The notes under the pieces: model-generated
The model's database searches: none
The model's input: only the letters and a program-made list of their open reading frames with translations
What the model was told of the DNA's origin: nothing
Made by a program: the position numbers and the translations under genes
Origin: Ekhidna sp.
Lineage (GTDB): Bacteria > Bacteroidota > Bacteroidia > Cytophagales > Cyclobacteriaceae
Direction of reading: 5' to 3'
NCBI RefSeq assembly: GCF_040220215.1
Contig: NZ_JAVJTR010000001.1
Coordinates: 974-64,973 of the forward strand
DNA: 64,000 nt
Shown here: piece after piece, positions 33,851 to 57,336 of the stretch
How positions within the stretch are numbered: position 1 is the stretch's first letter
Layout of the letters: each line of letters begins with the position of its first letter

Positions 33851-33897
33851 TCTAAGAAAATTTAGCTTCTCTAAAATATTCAAAAAAAACAAAAAAC

Positions 33898-34013
33898 CGT
33901 CATTCAGAGGCTCATAGGGCTGGTTGCAGCGGGGCAGCCGTGGAATCTCCTCGAATTGAAAGACTCCACGCCTTTCTCCATCGCACTTCCCAACAGAAAG
34001 GCTCTGAGTGACG
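33898..34013. repeat. CGTC-tagged multi-stem palindromic (REP-like) element
   Basis: Outer arms CGTCATTCAGAG/CTCTGAGTGACG; inner stems GGCTG/CAGCC, CGTGGAATCT/AGACTCCACG and GCCTTTCT/AGAAAGGC. Confidence 0.7.
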
Positions 34014-34041
34014 TTAGCTAGGTTTTTTGCTTTTTATTGAT

Positions 34042-44951: not shown

Positions 44952-45146
44952 CTACTTTCTTTTCCTTAGAAAAAGCCCAACAAGCAGGGCAATTACACTT
45001 ATAATTACTGGTGTCCAGTCAGCACTACTCACAGCAACATCCATACCCAGAAAACTGAAACTTTCAGAATCCTGTATTGCTTGCATGCCATAATAAACAG
45101 TACCAATTAAGCCGATAATAGTTAAAATTAAACCGATCGTTTTCAT
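44952..45146 (-). CDS. Small 2-TM membrane protein
   Basis: 64 aa, two hydrophobic helices, basic C-terminus. Confidence 0.7.
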   Translation of the reverse strand: MKTIGLILTIIGLIGTVYYGMQAIQDSESFSFLGMDVAVSSADWTPVIISVIALLVGLFLRKRK

Positions 45147-45185: not shown

Positions 45186-45210
45186 GTCGGGAAGTTTGAA
45201 ACCGTCTGGC
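45186..45210. repeat. Degenerate REP copy downstream of the RAYT
   Basis: GTCGGGAAGTTTGAAACCGTCTGGC versus GTCTGACGGTTTGGAACCGTCTGAC, 19/25 identical. Confidence 0.65.
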
Positions 45211-45219
45211 CATTTATTT

Positions 45220-45804
45220 TTAATACATTTCCTTCTGCTTCTCTTCTGAGATAATTTGATAAGATTCATCATACAATGTTTTCAAGTCTAGATCCAATAG
45301 CTGAGTAGCCAATGTTTTATCACAAAGAGTCCCATTTCGCATTCCGGTGTAATCCTGAAAAGAACTGAATTCCCAATCTTCCATTTTCGACACCAAACCT
45401 GCTACCATTGGGTTCTGATGAACATAGTTAAAGCAGATGTAAGGATAGTTTTTGCTTTCATCCAAAAGTTTTGACTTGGTTCGCTGGCGAAATAGTGAAC
45501 CTGTTCTATTGATTTGTTTATTAAACGCTTGAGCATATGAACTAAGAAGCATACGGAATCCATTATTCAGAGCCGTAACATTCAACGCCCCAACTTTAAT
45601 TTCTCTTGTTGAGGCCTCCGTTGTACTAATTAGAAAGTGGAAGTGATTCGGCATCAGACAGTATGCCAAAACATTACAGTGCGGAAGTACAAACTTTCGA
45701 AATTTTTCAAGAAAGAATAATTGATTGTCTCTACTGAGAAAAATCCTTTCTTTATTGTTTCCTTGATTGTAAAAATGAAAAAGTTGGTTCTCTTCTAGCT
45801 TCAT
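45220..45804 (-). mobile_element. REP-associated tyrosine transposase (RAYT/TnpA-REP, Y1 HUH superfamily)
   Basis: FHFYNQGNN, YCLMPNHFH (HUH), YAQAFNK...GSLF, YVHQNP (catalytic Tyr), WEFSS; flanking palindromes. Confidence 0.88.
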
Positions 45805-45820
45805 ACTATATCGTTCCTAC

Positions 45821-45849
45821 GCGTCAGACGGTTCCAAACCGTCAGACGC
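45821..45849. repeat. REP palindrome upstream of the RAYT
   Basis: GCGTC-A-GACGGTT-CCA-AACCGTC-A-GACGC; abuts the comM stop codon. Confidence 0.85.
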
Positions 45850-47388
45850 TTATCCAGCCCAACCTTCCCGATCCAGGCTTCTGTACTGAATAGCTTCAGC
45901 CAGATGTTCAATTGCAATCTCCTCCGTTCCGGCCAGATCAGCAATGGTTCTGGATACCCGAAGTATACGGTCATAGGCTCGGGCGGATAGTCCCAGCCGC
46001 TCCATTGCGGTTTTTAGTAATGCTTTTCCAGCTTCATTGATCTGGCAGACTTCCTTTACCATATTGGAACTCATCATCGCATTGTTAAATACGCCCGGTT
46101 GATCTTTGAATCGAACTTCCTGTATTTCTCTTGCACTGATCACCCGATCCCGGATTTCAGCACTGGATTCAGTTTTACGATTCTCCGTCATTTGATCAAA
46201 CGAGACTGGAGTTACCTCTACATGAAGATCAATGCGATCTAGTAGGGGTCCGCTGATTTTGTTAAGGTAGCGTTGTACGACTCCCGGTGCGCAAACACAT
46301 TCCTTTTCAGGGTGATTATAATACCCGCACGGGCATGGGTTCATGCTGGCAATCAGCATAAAGTTTGATGGATAATCCAAAGAAATTTTTGCGCGCGAGA
46401 TAGTCACCTTTCGTTCTTCCAGTGGTTGGCGCATCACTTCCAGCACAGACCGTTGAAACTCCGGCAGTTCATCCAGAAATAATACCCCATTATTGGCCAG
46501 CGAAATTTCCCCCGGCTGTGGAATACCACCACCTCCTACAAGCGCTGCATCCGAAATCGTGTGATGTGGTTGCCGGAACGGTCGTTGGGCAATCAGTTTT
46601 CCATCCGTTCCAAGTTTTCCTGCTACTGAGTGAATCTTTGTTGTCTCTAAAGCCTCGTGTAATGTGAGTGGTGGAAGAATTGACGGCAGTCTTTTAGCTA
46701 ACATCGTTTTGCCCGCCCCCGGTGGGCCAATCATAATCACGTTGTGTCCCCCGGCAGCCGCAATTTCCATCGCACGTTTGATGTTCTCCTGCCCCTGCAC
46801 ATCAGAAAAGTCCGAAGCGTAGTTGTCCAGATCTGCAAAAAACACATCCCGGGTGTCATATCGCAATGGTTCGATGATTTCTTCGCCCTCTAAATGATGA
46901 ATAGCATCCTTGATATTCTCAACTCCAATAATATCCAGCCCATCCACAATGGCTGCTTCCGTGGCATTTTCTTTAGGTAGAATAAATCCTTTAAAACCAT
47001 TCTTGCGAGCTTCTATGGCAATAGGCAATGCCCCTTTAATCGGACGAAGCTCCCCATCTAGCGCTAACTCGCCCATGATTACAAAGTCTTCAAGATTTTC
47101 TGCGATGATTTGTTCGGAGGCCTTTAGGATGCCGAGAGCAATAGGAAGATCGTACGCTGAGCCTTCTTTTCGGATATCTGCAGGAGCAAGATTAACGACC
47201 ACTTTTTGTCGAGGCATCCGATAGCCAAAATTTTTTATAGCTGACTCTACACGCTGCTCACTTTCCTTTACAGCAGAATCCGGCAGGCCCACCATAAAGA
47301 ACTTAGTGCCTTGCCCTACATTTACTTCAACTGTGATTTTATATGCATCCACGCCGTATACGGCGCTTCCATAGGTTTTAGCGAGCAT
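45850..47388 (-). CDS. comM: YifB/ComM Mg-chelatase-like AAA+ ATPase
   Basis: VGLPDSAVKES, GPPGAGKTML, LFLDELPEF, MNPCPCG, ISGPLLDRID. Confidence 0.95.
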   Translation of the reverse strand: MLAKTYGSAVYGVDAYKITVEVNVGQGTKFFMVGLPDSAVKESEQRVESAIKNFGYRMPRQKVVVNLAPADIRKEGSAYDLPIALGILKASEQIIAENLEDFVIMGELALDGELRPIKGALPIAIEARKNGFKGFILPKENATEAAIVDGLDIIGVENIKDAIHHLEGEEIIEPLRYDTRDVFFADLDNYASDFSDVQGQENIKRAMEIAAAGGHNVIMIGPPGAGKTMLAKRLPSILPPLTLHEALETTKIHSVAGKLGTDGKLIAQRPFRQPHHTISDAALVGGGGIPQPGEISLANNGVLFLDELPEFQRSVLEVMRQPLEERKVTISRAKISLDYPSNFMLIASMNPCPCGYYNHPEKECVCAPGVVQRYLNKISGPLLDRIDLHVEVTPVSFDQMTENRKTESSAEIRDRVISAREIQEVRFKDQPGVFNNAMMSSNMVKEVCQINEAGKALLKTAMERLGLSARAYDRILRVSRTIADLAGTEEIAIEHLAEAIQYRSLDREGWAG

Positions 47389-55356: not shown

Positions 55357-56256
55357 ATGAAAGTATTAATAACCGGAGCAAATGGACTATTAGGCCAGAA
55401 GTTGGTTCAGCTTTATGAAAGCGACGAAAGTGTCGATGTGATCGCCACCGCTCGAGGAGCGAGCAGAAATCCGTTTGGAACATATACTTATGAACAGATG
55501 GATGTTACTGTCAGGAGTGAAGTTGATAAAATCATCTCCAAGCATTCGCCTGATGTGGTGATCAACACAGCTGCCATGACACACGTGGATGAGTGTGAGC
55601 TAAATCCGGAAAAATGCTGGAAGCTAAATGTAGATGCCGTTTCAAACCTTATTGACGCTTGCCATAAGACCAACAGCTTTATCATTCACCTGTCTACCGA
55701 CTTCATCTTTGATGGAGAAAGCGGCCCGTATGTGGAAGAAGATTTGCCTAACCCGTTAAGCAAATATGCAGAGAGCAAGCTTGAATCTGAAAAGCTCCTT
55801 GAAGCAAGTGGTATAAAACATGCTATCGTTCGTACCATGCTTGTATATGGTATTGTACACGATATGAGCAGGTCCAACATCATCTTGTGGGTAAAGAAAA
55901 GCCTGGAGGAGAAGCAACTGATTAAAGTCGTGAATGACCAATGGCGCACACCAACACTGGCAGAAGACCTGGCAAAAGGATGTGCACTTATAGCACAAAA
56001 ACAAGCTGAAGGGGTTTGGCATATTTCAGGAAAGGATCTTCTTACACCCTACGATATGGCGATTGCCACCGCAGAATTTTTTGACCTGGACAAGGCGCTG
56101 ATTGAAAAGGCTGATGGATCTATTTTTACGCAACCGGCCAAACGTCCGCCCAAAACCGGATTTATTTTAGATAAAGCCAGGCGGGAATTAGGGTACGAAC
56201 CTGTTAGCTTTAAAGAAGGATTAGCCATTTTAAAGTCTCAATTAGCCCATGTATGA
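55357..56256 (+). CDS. rfbD: dTDP-4-dehydrorhamnose reductase-like SDR
   Basis: GANGLLG, NTAAMTHVD, STDFIFDG, YAESK, DQWRTPT, RPPKT. Confidence 0.8.
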   Translation: MKVLITGANGLLGQKLVQLYESDESVDVIATARGASRNPFGTYTYEQMDVTVRSEVDKIISKHSPDVVINTAAMTHVDECELNPEKCWKLNVDAVSNLIDACHKTNSFIIHLSTDFIFDGESGPYVEEDLPNPLSKYAESKLESEKLLEASGIKHAIVRTMLVYGIVHDMSRSNIILWVKKSLEEKQLIKVVNDQWRTPTLAEDLAKGCALIAQKQAEGVWHISGKDLLTPYDMAIATAEFFDLDKALIEKADGSIFTQPAKRPPKTGFILDKARRELGYEPVSFKEGLAILKSQLAHV

Positions 56257-57142
56257 TGTTGTTGTCCTAACCGATGCGCGCTATGTGAACCCCAAAAAGC
56301 GTAACCAGTACATTGATAATGTAATAGAGGAAGACCGCCTGGTGATGGAGGCATTGGAGAAGCTGGGGTTGAAAACTAAAAAAGTAGCCTGGTCAGATGC
56401 TTCATTTGATTGGACACAAACGAAAATTGCGTTGTTCCGCACCACATGGGATTATGCTGAAAAATTCACTGCATTCAGCGACTGGCTGATGGAGGTTTCG
56501 ATGGAATCCAAGCTGGTCAATGACTATGAAACTATCGTCTGGAACCTGGACAAGCACTACATGAACGACCTGAAAGATGCAGGTGTCAATGTGGTGGAAA
56601 CCTATTTCATAGAGCCTAGAGACACGAGAACCCTTCAGGAAATCCATGATGAGCTTGGATGGGAAAAGACGGTGCTAAAACCAGCCATTTCTGCGGCTGC
56701 CAAAGACACTTTCATGCTTTCACCCGAAACGATTGGTAATCTGGAAGAAAGATTCGCCTACCTGGTCAAGGATGAAACCATGATGCTTCAACCCTTTCAG
56801 GAAGACGTCTTGAAACGTGGTGAGCTTTCGCTCATGCTAATCGGAGAGACATATACCCATGCCGTACTGAAGGTAGCCAAGCCGGGCGATTTCCGAGTGC
56901 AGGATGATTTTGGCGGAACGGTAGCGGACTATAAGCCTACTCAAGCCGAAATAGATCTTGCGATTGCTGCTGTAAAAGCCTGCGAGAATACCCCACTCTA
57001 TGCACGAGTGGATATTGTCAATGACAACAACGGCAACCCTGCCGTTTCAGAGCTGGAGCTCGTAGAACCTGAGATGTGGTTTCGAAAGAATGCGAAAGCA
57101 GCAGAGATGCTAGCGGAGAAGGTGAAGGGATTGTTGGGTTGA
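56249..57142 (+). CDS. ATP-grasp ligase, RimK/DcsG-like
   Basis: FRTTWDY, DKHYM, VLKPAISAA, QPFQ, GDFRVQDDFGG, YARVD, ELELVEP. Confidence 0.82.
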   Translation: MYDVVVLTDARYVNPKKRNQYIDNVIEEDRLVMEALEKLGLKTKKVAWSDASFDWTQTKIALFRTTWDYAEKFTAFSDWLMEVSMESKLVNDYETIVWNLDKHYMNDLKDAGVNVVETYFIEPRDTRTLQEIHDELGWEKTVLKPAISAAAKDTFMLSPETIGNLEERFAYLVKDETMMLQPFQEDVLKRGELSLMLIGETYTHAVLKVAKPGDFRVQDDFGGTVADYKPTQAEIDLAIAAVKACENTPLYARVDIVNDNNGNPAVSELELVEPEMWFRKNAKAAEMLAEKVKGLLG

Positions 57143-57154
57143 ATATAGGTCACT

Positions 57155-57182
57155 CGTCTGACGGTTTGGAACCGTCTGACGC
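57155..57182. repeat. Satellite copy of the RAYT-flanking REP
   Basis: CGTCTGACGGTTTGGAACCGTCTGACGC, exact reverse complement of 45821-45848. Confidence 0.9.
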
Positions 57183-57227
57183 TGAATAGGTCAGGAGATA
57201 AGAAGCAGAGCTAGGGATCTTTTTGTA

Positions 57228-57319
57228 ACCGTCATCGCGAGTGCAACGAAGCGATCTTATAATCCAAAGGTTGCTTCGTCGTTCCCTGCCTTGCCGGCAG
57301 CCCTACTCGCAATGACGGT
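57228..57319. repeat. CGTC-tagged long palindromic element with nested hairpin
   Basis: Arms ACCGTCATCGCGAGT/ACTCGCAATGACGGT (14/15), inner ACGAAGCGATCT/AGGTTGCTTCGT, insert CTGCC-ttgcc-GGCAG. Confidence 0.8.
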
Positions 57320-57336
57320 AATATGGATACGGTAGC

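What the first reader, a model, noticed from the sequence alone, without database searches (positions are those of the whole stretch)
45186..45849. Intact RAYT nuclease bracketed by its own CGTC-tagged, doubly palindromic REP
Seen: the HUH and catalytic Tyr motifs are intact. A 29-nt palindrome sits 16 nt upstream of the ATG and a degenerate inverted copy sits 9 nt past the stop. The REP is unusual: one long hairpin with a single A-A mismatch whose ends (CGTC-A-GACG) are themselves mini-hairpins, so it can fold two ways and carries a CGTC tag at both termini. A GTAG follows it on the coding strand. Established: characterised RAYTs (E. coli, Pseudomonas, Stenotrophomonas) use GTAG-tagged REPs, and CGTC-tagged repeats are a separate described class. 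Inference: a Bacteroidota RAYT-REP system with a different guide/recognition rule; I cannot confirm it is undescribed.
Basis: partly seen in the sequence, partly recalled or inferred. Interest (0 to 1): 0.72.

Follow-up and report, generated by a model that had tools for sequence, protein, structure and literature searches.

The report
RAYT nuclease cassette with symmetric hairpins
A small gene for a hairpin-cutting DNA enzyme (a RAYT) sits between two copies of its own DNA hairpin in an Ekhidna genome; this is a known kind of system, but the hairpin type, with GTCTGAC in both arms and a built-in T·T mismatch, seems undescribed, and it is not a "CGTC tag".

Summary
Window 45220-45804(-) encodes an intact 194-aa HUH/Tyr protein. 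Its predicted fold best matches E. coli TnpA_REP (4ER8). A 29-nt hairpin lies 16 nt upstream and a decayed inverted copy lies about 8 nt past the stop.

The genome holds just three intact copies plus the decayed one, so this is not a repeat population. CGTC and the trailing GTAG are not conserved.

What is conserved is GTC-N-GAC in both arms of the flanking hairpins. It is seen next to the homologue in about 40% of 79 related loci that I classified (Chitinophagaceae, Cyclobacteriaceae, Balneolaceae and others). The central base is usually the same W on both arms, giving a T·T or A·A mismatch. Such hairpins are about 95 times denser beside the gene than elsewhere in the same loci. They reach 10-31 copies in some genomes.

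The 664-bp hairpin-gene-hairpin unit is a clean insertion between a comM-like gene and a small membrane-protein gene. Three sister species have the empty site. The unit is 91-95% identical to the E. lutea copy, against about 77% for the flanks, so it arrived recently. dN/dS is 0.08.

The protein is not the canonical Bacteroidota RAYT subclass 2.6. Verdict: a new variant of a known kind, of moderate interest.

The parts
45821..45849 (-). 5' REP: a 29-nt hairpin with a 13-bp stem, a 3-nt loop and GTCTGAC in both arms on the coding strand, giving a central T·T mismatch. It starts directly after the stop codon of the upstream gene.
   Evidence: Sequence. Fold -14.0 kcal/mol, z -6.9. Identical in E. 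lutea.
45220..45804 (-). RAYT-like Y1 HUH nuclease gene, 194 aa: HUH = H54-F-H56, catalytic Tyr127 in YVHQNP, a conserved GSLFRQ.TK motif where other RAYTs have WQ/WE, and a DWEFSSF tail motif.
   Evidence: (NF047646, 50.5 bits, below the 80 cut-off). AF2 model pLDDT 91.8. Best PDB match 4ER8, E 4.3e-7. dN/dS 0.08 against E. lutea.
45186..45211 (-). 3' REP remnant in inverted orientation (A-type on the coding strand), degenerate: 19 of 29 positions match and it no longer folds.
   Evidence: The E. lutea ortholog has the better copy TCGTCAGACGGTTTCAAACTTTCTGAC.
45186..45849 (-). The whole 664-bp REP-RAYT-REP' cassette. It is an insertion relative to three sister species, with its ends at the outer feet of the two hairpins.
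   Evidence: The empty site ...ggataa|TTATT... is seen in G052, and also in G056 and G005. The cassette is 91-95% identical to E. lutea at the nucleotide level, against about 77% for the flanks.
57154..57182 (+). Solo REP copy TCGTCTGACGGTTTGGAACCGTCTGACGC, matching the 5' REP at 28 of 29 positions. It lies 11 nt after the stop of ORF 56249-57142.
45850..47388 (-). Upstream neighbour, not part of the element: a comM/YifB-like Mg-chelatase-family ATPase whose stop codon abuts the 5' REP.
   Evidence: Pfam PF01078, PF13541 and PF13335.
44952..45146 (-). Downstream neighbour, not part of the element: a 64-aa predicted membrane protein. In the empty-site species it directly follows the comM-like gene.

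Best explanation
This is a REPtron-like unit. A single-copy gene for a RAYT (a REP-associated tyrosine transposase, an HUH/Y1 single-strand DNA nuclease) is flanked by inverted copies of its cognate hairpin.

Shown here:
- The catalytic motifs are intact and the predicted fold best matches TnpA_REP.
- The gene is under purifying selection.
- The flanking hairpins are inverted relative to each other.
- The unit is a discrete 664-bp insertion whose ends coincide with the hairpin feet.
- It is much younger than its flanks.
- The protein belongs to a large, mostly Bacteroidota clade. Members of the clade are very often flanked by hairpins that carry a 7-nt mini-palindrome, mostly GTC-W-GAC, in both arms, with the same central base on both arms. 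The stem is therefore two-fold symmetric with a central T·T mismatch (A·A on the other strand).

Inferred, by analogy with E. coli TnpA_REP, IS608 and ISDra2:
- The enzyme binds the hairpin when the DNA is single-stranded, for example on the lagging-strand template.
- It tells the two strands apart by the T·T versus A·A mismatch and by the pyrimidine- or purine-rich loop.
- It cuts near the foot of the hairpin with Tyr127 and the HUH-bound metal, then rejoins strands, which moves or copies hairpins.

In this Ekhidna genome the system is minimal: three intact hairpins, one of them translated in frame inside an ABC-F gene. It probably arrived by lateral transfer.
For: - Motifs and family: PF01797 matches 13 of 14 family members; profile hits 4ER8 at E 0.0057.
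- Structure: pLDDT 91.8. The top PDB match is 4ER8, followed by ISDra2 and IS608 transposases.
- Copy counts: 3 exact cores in 4.37 Mb. There are 6 closely spaced GTCNGAC pairs against 0.6 expected, and 3 of them are the REPs.
- Family-wide link: 32 of 79 homolog loci have GTCNGAC-armed hairpins within 200 nt of the gene. That is 57 such hairpins in 31.0 kb of flank against 7 in 360.9 kb of the rest of the same loci.
- Central pair: same-base W·W in 32 of 50 hairpins, Watson-Crick in only 11 of 50.
- Dispersed families: 0-31 copies per genome (10-31 in 12 of 25 genomes carrying a homolog), against 0-2 for the reversed-pattern control. Clear consensus in two genomes, for example ccG GTCTGAC GG YCT CC GTCTGAC Cg, with TT or AA in 48 of 52.
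- Hairpin type tracks the protein tree: 15 changes against 24.5 in shuffles, with 0 of 500 shuffles as low.
- Empty sites.
- Age and selection: cassette 91-95% against flanks about 77%. pS is 0.29 for the RAYT and 0.785 for the comM-like gene; dN/dS is 0.08. In other syntenic pairs of the family the gene is no more conserved than its flanks.
Against: - No activity was measured.
- There are only three intact hairpins in this genome and one in E. lutea.
- The 3' flank copy here is decayed and no longer folds.
- The E. lutea gene has a C-terminal frameshift, so the system may be idle or dying in this genus.
- 26 of 79 homolog loci showed no flanking hairpin of 8 bp or more.
- The score against NCBI's RAYT model is below its cut-off and Pfam Y1_Tnp is below threshold for this protein.
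- The right edge of the high-identity tract is not sharp. The spacer and the 64-aa gene are also less diverged than the comM-like gene (pS 0.455). Transfer by homologous recombination rather than transposition is therefore not excluded.
Confidence: 0.75

Rival explanations
1. The cassette is an autonomous IS200/IS605-like insertion sequence that moves as a whole, not a domesticated RAYT serving solo hairpins.
For: - It is a discrete insertion with hairpins exactly at both ends.
- It is far younger than its flanks.
- It is present in 2 of 42 species of the genus.
- The protein tree is incongruent with taxonomy.
Against: - There is one copy per genome.
- The two end hairpins are inverted, whereas IS200/IS605 ends are read on one strand.
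- The Tyr motif is Y...NP (class 2, RAYT) and not Y...Q (PMC6006769).
- There is no tnpB.
- Solo hairpins exist away from the gene.
- In other genera the gene is syntenic and diverges in step with its flanks.
Confidence: 0.12
2. It is a relic. The system was acquired and is now inactive in this genus, so the hairpins are inert remnants and the gene has no current role.
For: - There are only 3 intact hairpins here and 1 in E. lutea.
- The 3' hairpin is decayed.
- The E. lutea gene has a frameshift in its tail.
- RAYT fragments lie elsewhere in the genome.
Against: - dN/dS is 0.08 over 170 codons.
- The ORF here is full length with all invariant family residues.
- The solo copy at 57154 matches the 5' copy at 28 of 29 positions, which suggests recent copying.
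Confidence: 0.1
3. One reading: the hairpin belongs to the published CGTC-tagged REP superfamily and this gene is its missing dedicated transposase.
For: CGTC occurs at both ends of the 29-mer on both strands. The CGTC families are reported to lack a transposase (PMC3733652).
Against: - In the published families CGTC is an unpaired terminal tag. It is followed by an 8-9-bp stem that starts with A/T pairs, a 4-5-nt loop and a CCA tail. None of these holds here.
- Across the clade the base before GTC is not conserved, and the copy on contig C22 of this same genome has GGTC.
Confidence: 0.02
4. The hairpin is only a transcription terminator or RNA-stabilising structure of the upstream comM-like gene and is unrelated to the nuclease gene.
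For: It starts directly after a stop codon, and so does the copy at 57154. The related copy in species G019 is followed by a T run.
Against: - There is no T tract after the hairpin, and the terminator scan does not call it.
- There is no Rfam match.
- Hairpins of the same architecture are enriched about 95-fold beside homologs of the gene in many genera.
- One copy lies inside a coding region.
Confidence: 0.01

Closest known systems
E. coli TnpA_REP (RAYT, YafM) with its REP/BIME 'REPtron' (PDB 4ER8; PMC8266576; subclass 2.2 of PMC6006769)
   Same: - HUH plus Tyr(Y...NP) catalytic set.
- Best structural match.
- Single-copy gene flanked by inverted hairpins.
- A stem irregularity as the likely strand-specific determinant.
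   Different: - About 16% sequence identity.
- No 5' GTAG guide.
- The W of the WQ/WE motif is replaced by an invariant F in GSLFRQ.TK.
- An extra beta-hairpin follows the HUH strand in the model.
- The stem is two-fold symmetric with a single W·W mismatch instead of an A12A13-G26C27 bulge.
- There are very few hairpin copies.
TnpA_Y1 subclass 2.6 of Quentin et al. 2018 (= Bertels RAYT group 5): Bacteroidota RAYTs flanked by 'atypical secondary structures'
   Same: - Same phylum.
- Y motif YIH[QN]NP and a serine-containing tail motif.
- Non-GTAG hairpins with 3-nt loops and 9-10-bp stems, with a few copies elsewhere in the genome.
   Different: - RAYTs beside a canonical 2.6 REP (GTCGCTTGGCTYTGCCGAGTGAC) are 46-47% identical to a different gene of this genome (C27:99736-100170). 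They are only about 21% identical to the window's protein.
- The HUH-Tyr distance is about 73 aa against a median of 82.
- FRQ instead of WQ.
- None of the GTCNGAC, GTGSCAC or ATGSCAT hairpins appears in that paper's Table S1.
TnpA_Y1 subclass 2.1 / TIRYT (Bertels group 1)
   Same: The published motif variants NH[YF]H, FQ and Y[IV]HLNP, and the long proximal tail with SS, resemble NHFH, F(R)Q, YVHQNP and DWEFSSF.
   Different: - Only 25% identical to the one reference I could fetch, a Granulicella gene beside the REP that Table S1 lists for subclass 2.1 AEU35143.1.
- No C-terminal HTH domain.
- Subclass 2.1 is reported as having no REPs, or long TIRs, whereas this clade has short hairpins.
IS200/IS605 transposases (IS608 TnpA, ISDra2 TnpA)
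   Same: Same fold. Recognition of sub-terminal hairpins with an unpaired or mismatched base. The element's ends coincide with the hairpins.
   Different: Y...NP rather than Y...Q. Single copy. Inverted rather than same-strand end hairpins. No tnpB.
CGTC-tagged REP families CGTC-1 to CGTC-4 (Di Nocera et al. 2013, PMC3733652)
   Same: Short palindromic repeats that contain CGTC.
   Different: The tag is paired rather than unpaired, and the stem, loop and tail rules are not met. Those families have no associated transposase.

Membership tests
RAYT / TnpA_REP (class 2 TnpA_Y1) | HUH metal-binding motif | tested here: met
   N53-H54-F55-H56. H56 is invariant and H54 nearly invariant in 50 homologs.
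RAYT / TnpA_REP (class 2 TnpA_Y1) | Catalytic Tyr in the class-2 signature Y---NP | tested here: met
   Y127-V-H-Q-N-P. Y127, H129, Q130 and N131 are invariant. The signature is as given in PMC6006769.
RAYT / TnpA_REP (class 2 TnpA_Y1) | HUH/Y1 transposase fold | tested here: met
   AF2 pLDDT 91.8, pTM 0.89. Foldseek top hit 4ER8, E 4.3e-7, TM 0.54/0.62, followed by ISDra2, IS608 and IS200 transposases.
RAYT / TnpA_REP (class 2 TnpA_Y1) | Score above curated family thresholds | tested here: not met
   NF047646 scores 50.5 bits against a cut-off of 80. PF01797 scores 16 bits against 23 for this protein, although 13 of 14 relatives match at E of 1 or less, the best at 4.9e-6.
RAYT / TnpA_REP (class 2 TnpA_Y1) | Single or low copy per genome | tested here: met
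   One full copy of this clade. The other hits are about 25% identical paralogs or fragments.
RAYT / TnpA_REP (class 2 TnpA_Y1) | Gene flanked by cognate hairpins in inverted orientation (REPtron) | tested here: met
   T-type copy 5' and A-type remnant 3'. In the family, most loci with a hairpin close on both sides carry opposite types on the two sides (my reading of the rows).
RAYT / TnpA_REP (class 2 TnpA_Y1) | Cognate hairpin dispersed in many copies in the host genome | tested here: not met
   3 intact copies here and 1 in E. lutea. It is met in other hosts of the clade, with 10-31 copies.
RAYT / TnpA_REP (class 2 TnpA_Y1) | 5' GT[AG]G guide at the foot of the hairpin (canonical subclasses) | tested here: not met
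   No GTAG 5' of the hairpin. The GTAG 3' of it is not conserved in the ortholog, and there is none in the family consensus.
RAYT / TnpA_REP (class 2 TnpA_Y1) | Hairpin-specific ssDNA cleavage and strand transfer | not testable with these tools
   Needs purified protein and oligonucleotides.
Quentin subclass 2.6 | Sequence clustering with reference 2.6 members | tested here: not met
   RAYTs beside a 2.6 REP from Table S1 are 46-47% identical to paralog C27, and only 21% (E 5.6e-4) to this protein. I had no access to the authors' HMMs.
CGTC-tagged REPs (Di Nocera 2013) | Unpaired terminal CGTC tag, an 8-9-bp stem starting with A/T pairs, a 4-5-nt loop and a CCA tail | tested here: not met
   CGTC is paired within a 13-bp stem, the loop is 3 nt and there is no CCA tail.
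IS200/IS605 insertion sequence | Y---Q motif, multiple near-identical copies, same-strand end hairpins, often a tnpB partner | tested here: not met
   Y---NP motif, one copy, inverted hairpins and no tnpB-like ORF in the cassette.

The most novel reading that the evidence does not exclude
This RAYT clade may use a recognition rule not yet described for RAYTs. There would be no unpaired 5' guide. Instead there is a two-fold symmetric stem in which both arms read GTCWGAC. The single central T·T (or A·A) mismatch, together with the loop, would be the strand-specific determinant. It would be read by the clade's invariant GSLFRQ.TK segment and its extra beta-hairpin.

In addition, the hairpin-gene-hairpin unit itself may still be mobile. 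In Ekhidna it is a clean insertion, far younger than its flanks, at the same site in two species. That would place it between IS200-like elements and domesticated RAYTs.
Probability: 0.3. Interest if true: 0.6.

Novelty: new variant of a known kind. Interest (0 to 1): 0.42.

Why it matters
RAYT-REP systems are the best-studied case of a domesticated transposase living with its own non-autonomous repeats. Biochemistry exists only for proteobacterial, GTAG-guided enzymes.

A large Bacteroidota clade whose hairpins are symmetric, lack any guide tag and carry a conserved single mismatch gives a simple substrate of about 25 nt. It could be used to ask how such enzymes choose strand and cleavage site without GTAG.

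The Ekhidna case also shows a RAYT kept under purifying selection with almost no repeats to serve. It was moved recently as a hairpin-bounded unit. That bears on whether RAYTs are maintained for repeat propagation at all.

It does not identify the missing transposase of the CGTC repeat class.

Tried and rejected
- A genome-wide 16-mer census found no abundant repeat (maximum 11 copies, none related to this hairpin). The idea of a REP population in this genome was rejected.
- I looked for an empty site for the solo copy at 57154. The region downstream of ORF 56249-57142 is not syntenic in E. lutea or other species, so there is no clean comparison.
- The intragenic copy in the ABC-F gene lies in a hypervariable linker. 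E. lutea lacks about 19 nt of it, but the alignment is too loose to call it a clean insertion.
- Subclass assignment was only partly successful. Fetching a subclass 2.1 reference through its REP found no RAYT genes beside 47 REP copies. A family search of the Granulicella genome then found one, but it is equally distant from my protein and from the 2.6-like paralog. The B. litoralis locus from the look-up of encoding contigs could not be used as a genome handle.
- A single-sequence search against the PDB was not significant. Only the profile search and the fold search were.
- Rfam found nothing for the hairpin region or for two other repeats.
- 'RAYTs simply evolve slowly' as an explanation for the high cassette identity was rejected, because in other syntenic pairs of the family the gene is no more conserved than its flanks.
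- Literature searches for GTCTGAC-type REPs found nothing relevant. That is absence in the searchable library only.

Full report
**What is there**

The window comes from an Ekhidna species. The closest named relative is E. lutea DSM 19307. The window is C1:974-64973 of a 4.37-Mb, 27-contig assembly.

On the minus strand, ORF 45220-45804 encodes 194 aa with NHFH at residues 53-56 and YVHQNP at 127-132. The 29-nt palindrome GCGTCAGACGGTTCCAAACCGTCAGACGC occupies 45821-45849. It lies 16 nt from the ATG and starts directly after the stop codon of the upstream comM/YifB-like ATPase gene at 45850-47388 (Pfam). On the coding strand it reads GC-GTCTGAC-GGTT-TGG-AACC-GTCTGAC-GC, which is a 13-bp stem with one central T·T mismatch and a 3-nt loop.

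As single-stranded DNA it folds into that one hairpin on either strand. The energies are -14.0 and -12.5 kcal/mol, with z -6.9 and -5.9. No alternative fold appears, and the proposed CGTC-N-GACG mini-hairpins would need a 1-nt loop.

Eight nucleotides past the stop lies an inverted, decayed copy at 45186-45211. It matches at 19 of 29 positions and no longer folds. The E. lutea ortholog keeps a better one, TCGTCAGACGGTTTCAAACTTTCTGAC, so it is a true remnant. The GTAG that follows the 5' hairpin here is TTAA in E. lutea.

**The protein**

Pfam gives nothing at E of 0.01 or less. NCBI's RAYT model NF047646 scores 50.5 bits, below its cut-off of 80.

There are more than 3,000 homologs of about 195 aa, mostly from Bacteroidota. 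They are annotated as 'transposase' or 'REP element-mobilizing transposase RayT'. Thirteen of 14 relatives match Pfam Y1_Tnp, and a family profile finds E. coli TnpA_REP (4ER8) at E 0.0057.

An AlphaFold2 model built from 50 homologs is confident, with pLDDT 91.8. Its best PDB match is 4ER8 (E 4.3e-7), followed by the ISDra2, IS608 and IS200 transposases. Thg1-like guanylyltransferases also appear high in that list.

Two features set the clade apart. It has an invariant GSLF-R-Q.TK.K segment where other RAYTs have the WQ/WE motif. The model also shows an extra beta-hairpin at residues 68-77, after the HUH strand.

**How many hairpins**

- the 5' flank of the gene;
- window 57154-57182, 11 nt after the stop of ORF 56249-57142, matching at 28 of 29 positions;
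- a copy on contig C22.

The C22 copy is read in frame (RSDGSKPSD) in the variable linker of an ABC-F-type ATPase gene. No 16-mer in the genome exceeds 11 copies.

Across 42 species of the genus, exact cores occur only in this genome (3), in E. lutea (1, the gene's flank) and in one species without the ortholog (1). One-mismatch hits are at the level of the control. So there is no repeat population in Ekhidna.

**The family-wide picture**

I fetched 80 loci that encode homologs 40-93% identical to the window's protein and looked for hairpins within 150-200 nt of the gene. Of the 79 loci classified, 32 carry hairpins whose two arms both contain GTC-N-GAC. Examples are CGGTCTGACGG-CCT-CCGTCTGACCG and AAGCGTCAGACACCT-CAA-AGGTGTCAGACGCTT.

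There are 57 such hairpins in 31.0 kb of gene flanks, against 7 in 360.9 kb of the remaining sequence of the same loci. That is roughly a 95-fold difference in density.

The central base is the same W on both arms in 32 of 50 hairpins. It forms a Watson-Crick pair in only 11 of 50. The mismatch is therefore the rule, not decay.

Smaller sub-clades use other 7-nt mini-palindromes in the same architecture: GTG-S-CAC, ATG-S-CAT and GT-CCT-AC. Hairpin type is clustered on the protein tree (15 changes against 24.5 in shuffles, 0 of 500 shuffles as low). This fits co-evolution of enzyme and hairpin.

Where a hairpin lies close on both sides of the gene, the two sides usually carry opposite types (T then A, or A then T).

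In 25 genomes that carry a homolog, GTCWGAC-N5-13-GTCWGAC occurs 0-31 times, against 0-2 for the reversed-pattern control. Twelve genomes have 10 or more. In two Chitinophagaceae genomes the copies form clear families, often as inverted pairs. Both arms carry the same W in 48 of 52 copies, and the loop is pyrimidine-rich on the T strand.

The window's hairpin is thus a member of this type, with a longer inner stem (GGTT/AACC) and a TGG loop. The base before GTC varies across the family, so CGTC is not the conserved element.

**The cassette as a unit**

In three other Ekhidna species (G052, G056, G005) the comM-like gene is followed after 29-50 nt by the 64-aa membrane-protein gene. In this genome and in E. 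lutea the spacer is 703 nt.

G052 has exactly the same comM end (…gctggataa), followed by TTATT. Here the 664-bp hairpin-gene-hairpin unit lies between those two points. Its ends therefore coincide with the outer feet of the two hairpins.

Between this genome and E. lutea, the flanking genes are 66-83% identical at the nucleotide level (mean about 77%). The cassette is 91-95% identical. Synonymous difference is 0.29 in the RAYT gene against 0.785 in the comM-like gene, which is saturated. dN/dS for the RAYT is 0.08.

The left edge of the high-identity tract is sharp and lies at the first base of the hairpin. The right edge is not sharp: the 40-nt spacer and the 64-aa gene are intermediate (pS 0.455).

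In five other syntenic pairs of the family the gene is as diverged as its flanks or more so. The Ekhidna pattern is therefore not a general slow rate. It points to recent lateral arrival of the unit in at least one of the two lineages. The data do not tell whether this happened by transposition to the same site or by recombination. Only 2 of 42 species of the genus have this ortholog.

**Comparison with the literature**

Di Nocera et al. 2013 define CGTC REPs by an unpaired terminal CGTC, 8-9-bp stems that start with A/T pairs, 4-5-nt loops and a CCA tail. They report no transposase for these repeats (PMC3733652). None of those features holds here.

Quentin et al. 2018 describe Bacteroidota RAYTs (subclass 2.6 = Bertels group 5) flanked by 'atypical secondary structures' without GTAG (PMC6006769). 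A Bacteroidota RAYT with non-GTAG hairpins is therefore not new in kind.

Two points remain new:
- Their table of manually curated REPs contains no GTCTGAC, GTCAGAC, GTCCGAC, GCCACGGTT or TGCCATAC.
- RAYTs found beside one of their subclass 2.6 REPs are 46-47% identical to a different RAYT of this genome (C27:99736-100170, which has its own hairpins GGTCTTAGCG-TCT-CGCTGAGACC). They are only about 21% identical to the window's protein.

A subclass 2.1 reference (Granulicella) is equally distant at 25%. The subclass stays unresolved. The motifs are a mix of the published 2.1 and 2.6 signatures.

Full-text searches found no paper that links GTCTGAC hairpins to a transposase.

**Mechanism (inferred)**

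E. coli TnpA_REP needs the stem bulge and the GTAG guide. Other RAYTs rely on loop bases. IS608 and ISDra2 transposases contact an unpaired or mismatched stem base. All of them act strand-specifically on folded single-stranded DNA (PMC8266576).

By analogy, the conserved W·W mismatch and the strand-biased loop are the likely determinants here. They distinguish the T strand from the A strand of an otherwise symmetric hairpin. Tyr127 and the HUH motif would carry out cleavage and rejoining. The cleavage site is unknown.

**Verdict**

Most of the interest lies in the clade-wide symmetric, mismatched hairpin and in the recently transferred, hairpin-bounded cassette.

Noticed in passing
genome contig C27:99736-100170 (outside the window): A second, unrelated RAYT system in the same genome. 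The 183-aa protein (SHAH, FWQQ, YIHQNP, WTYSSARDY) is flanked on both sides by GGTCTTAGCG-TCT-CGCTGAGACC hairpins. It is 46-47% identical to RAYTs that sit beside the published subclass 2.6 REP.
   Followed up: partly
window ~33895-34030 (+), with about 14 more copies on other contigs: A family of 120-140-nt elements with complementary conserved ends AACCGTCATTCAGAGGCTC ... AAGGCTCTGAGTGACG, often preceded by AAACCAACAAAA. These are among the most repeated 16-mers of the genome. No Rfam match at E of 0.1 or less.
   Followed up: partly
window 57227-57330 (+): Directly after the solo hairpin copy lies a roughly 100-nt unit with inverted ends AACCGTCATCGCGAGTG ... CTACTCGCAATGACGGT. Short 83-94% matches to part of it occur several times in two other Ekhidna genomes. 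No Rfam match.
   Followed up: no
genome contig C22:56143-56171: A hairpin copy is translated in frame (RSDGSKPSD) inside the variable linker of an ABC-F-type ATPase gene. E. lutea lacks about 19 nt of it at the same place.
   Followed up: partly
L002/L033 (E. lutea) 2020-2090: The E. lutea ortholog has a 1-nt insertion that cuts the protein to 178 aa. The old C-terminal reading frame is still recognisable downstream.
   Followed up: yes
genome contigs C16:609390-609527, C13:499-864, C8:43232-43732: Truncated RAYT-like fragments. The C16 fragment is 43% identical to the N-terminus of the window's protein and stops right at the HUH motif.
   Followed up: no
loci L196-L263: The exact 23-mer GTCGCTTGGCTYTGCCGAGTGAC, a published subclass 2.6 REP of Bernardetia litoralis, occurs in 68 stretches from many genera (Roseivirga, Runella, Spirosoma, Siphonobacter, Arcicella, Mucilaginibacter and others). 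That is unusually wide conservation for a REP sequence.
   Followed up: no
L035 vs L036: A homolog in a MAG labelled Verrucomicrobiota (Methylacidiphilales) is almost identical to one in a Bacteroidetes MAG, and the flanks are 82% identical. This is either lateral transfer or a binning error.
   Followed up: no
L026 (species G019, contig C14:13814-13840): A lone copy of the Ekhidna hairpin (GTCTGACGGTTCCAAACCGTCTGA, with the loop flipped relative to the mismatch) is followed by a T run, in a species that lacks the ortholog of the gene.
   Followed up: no
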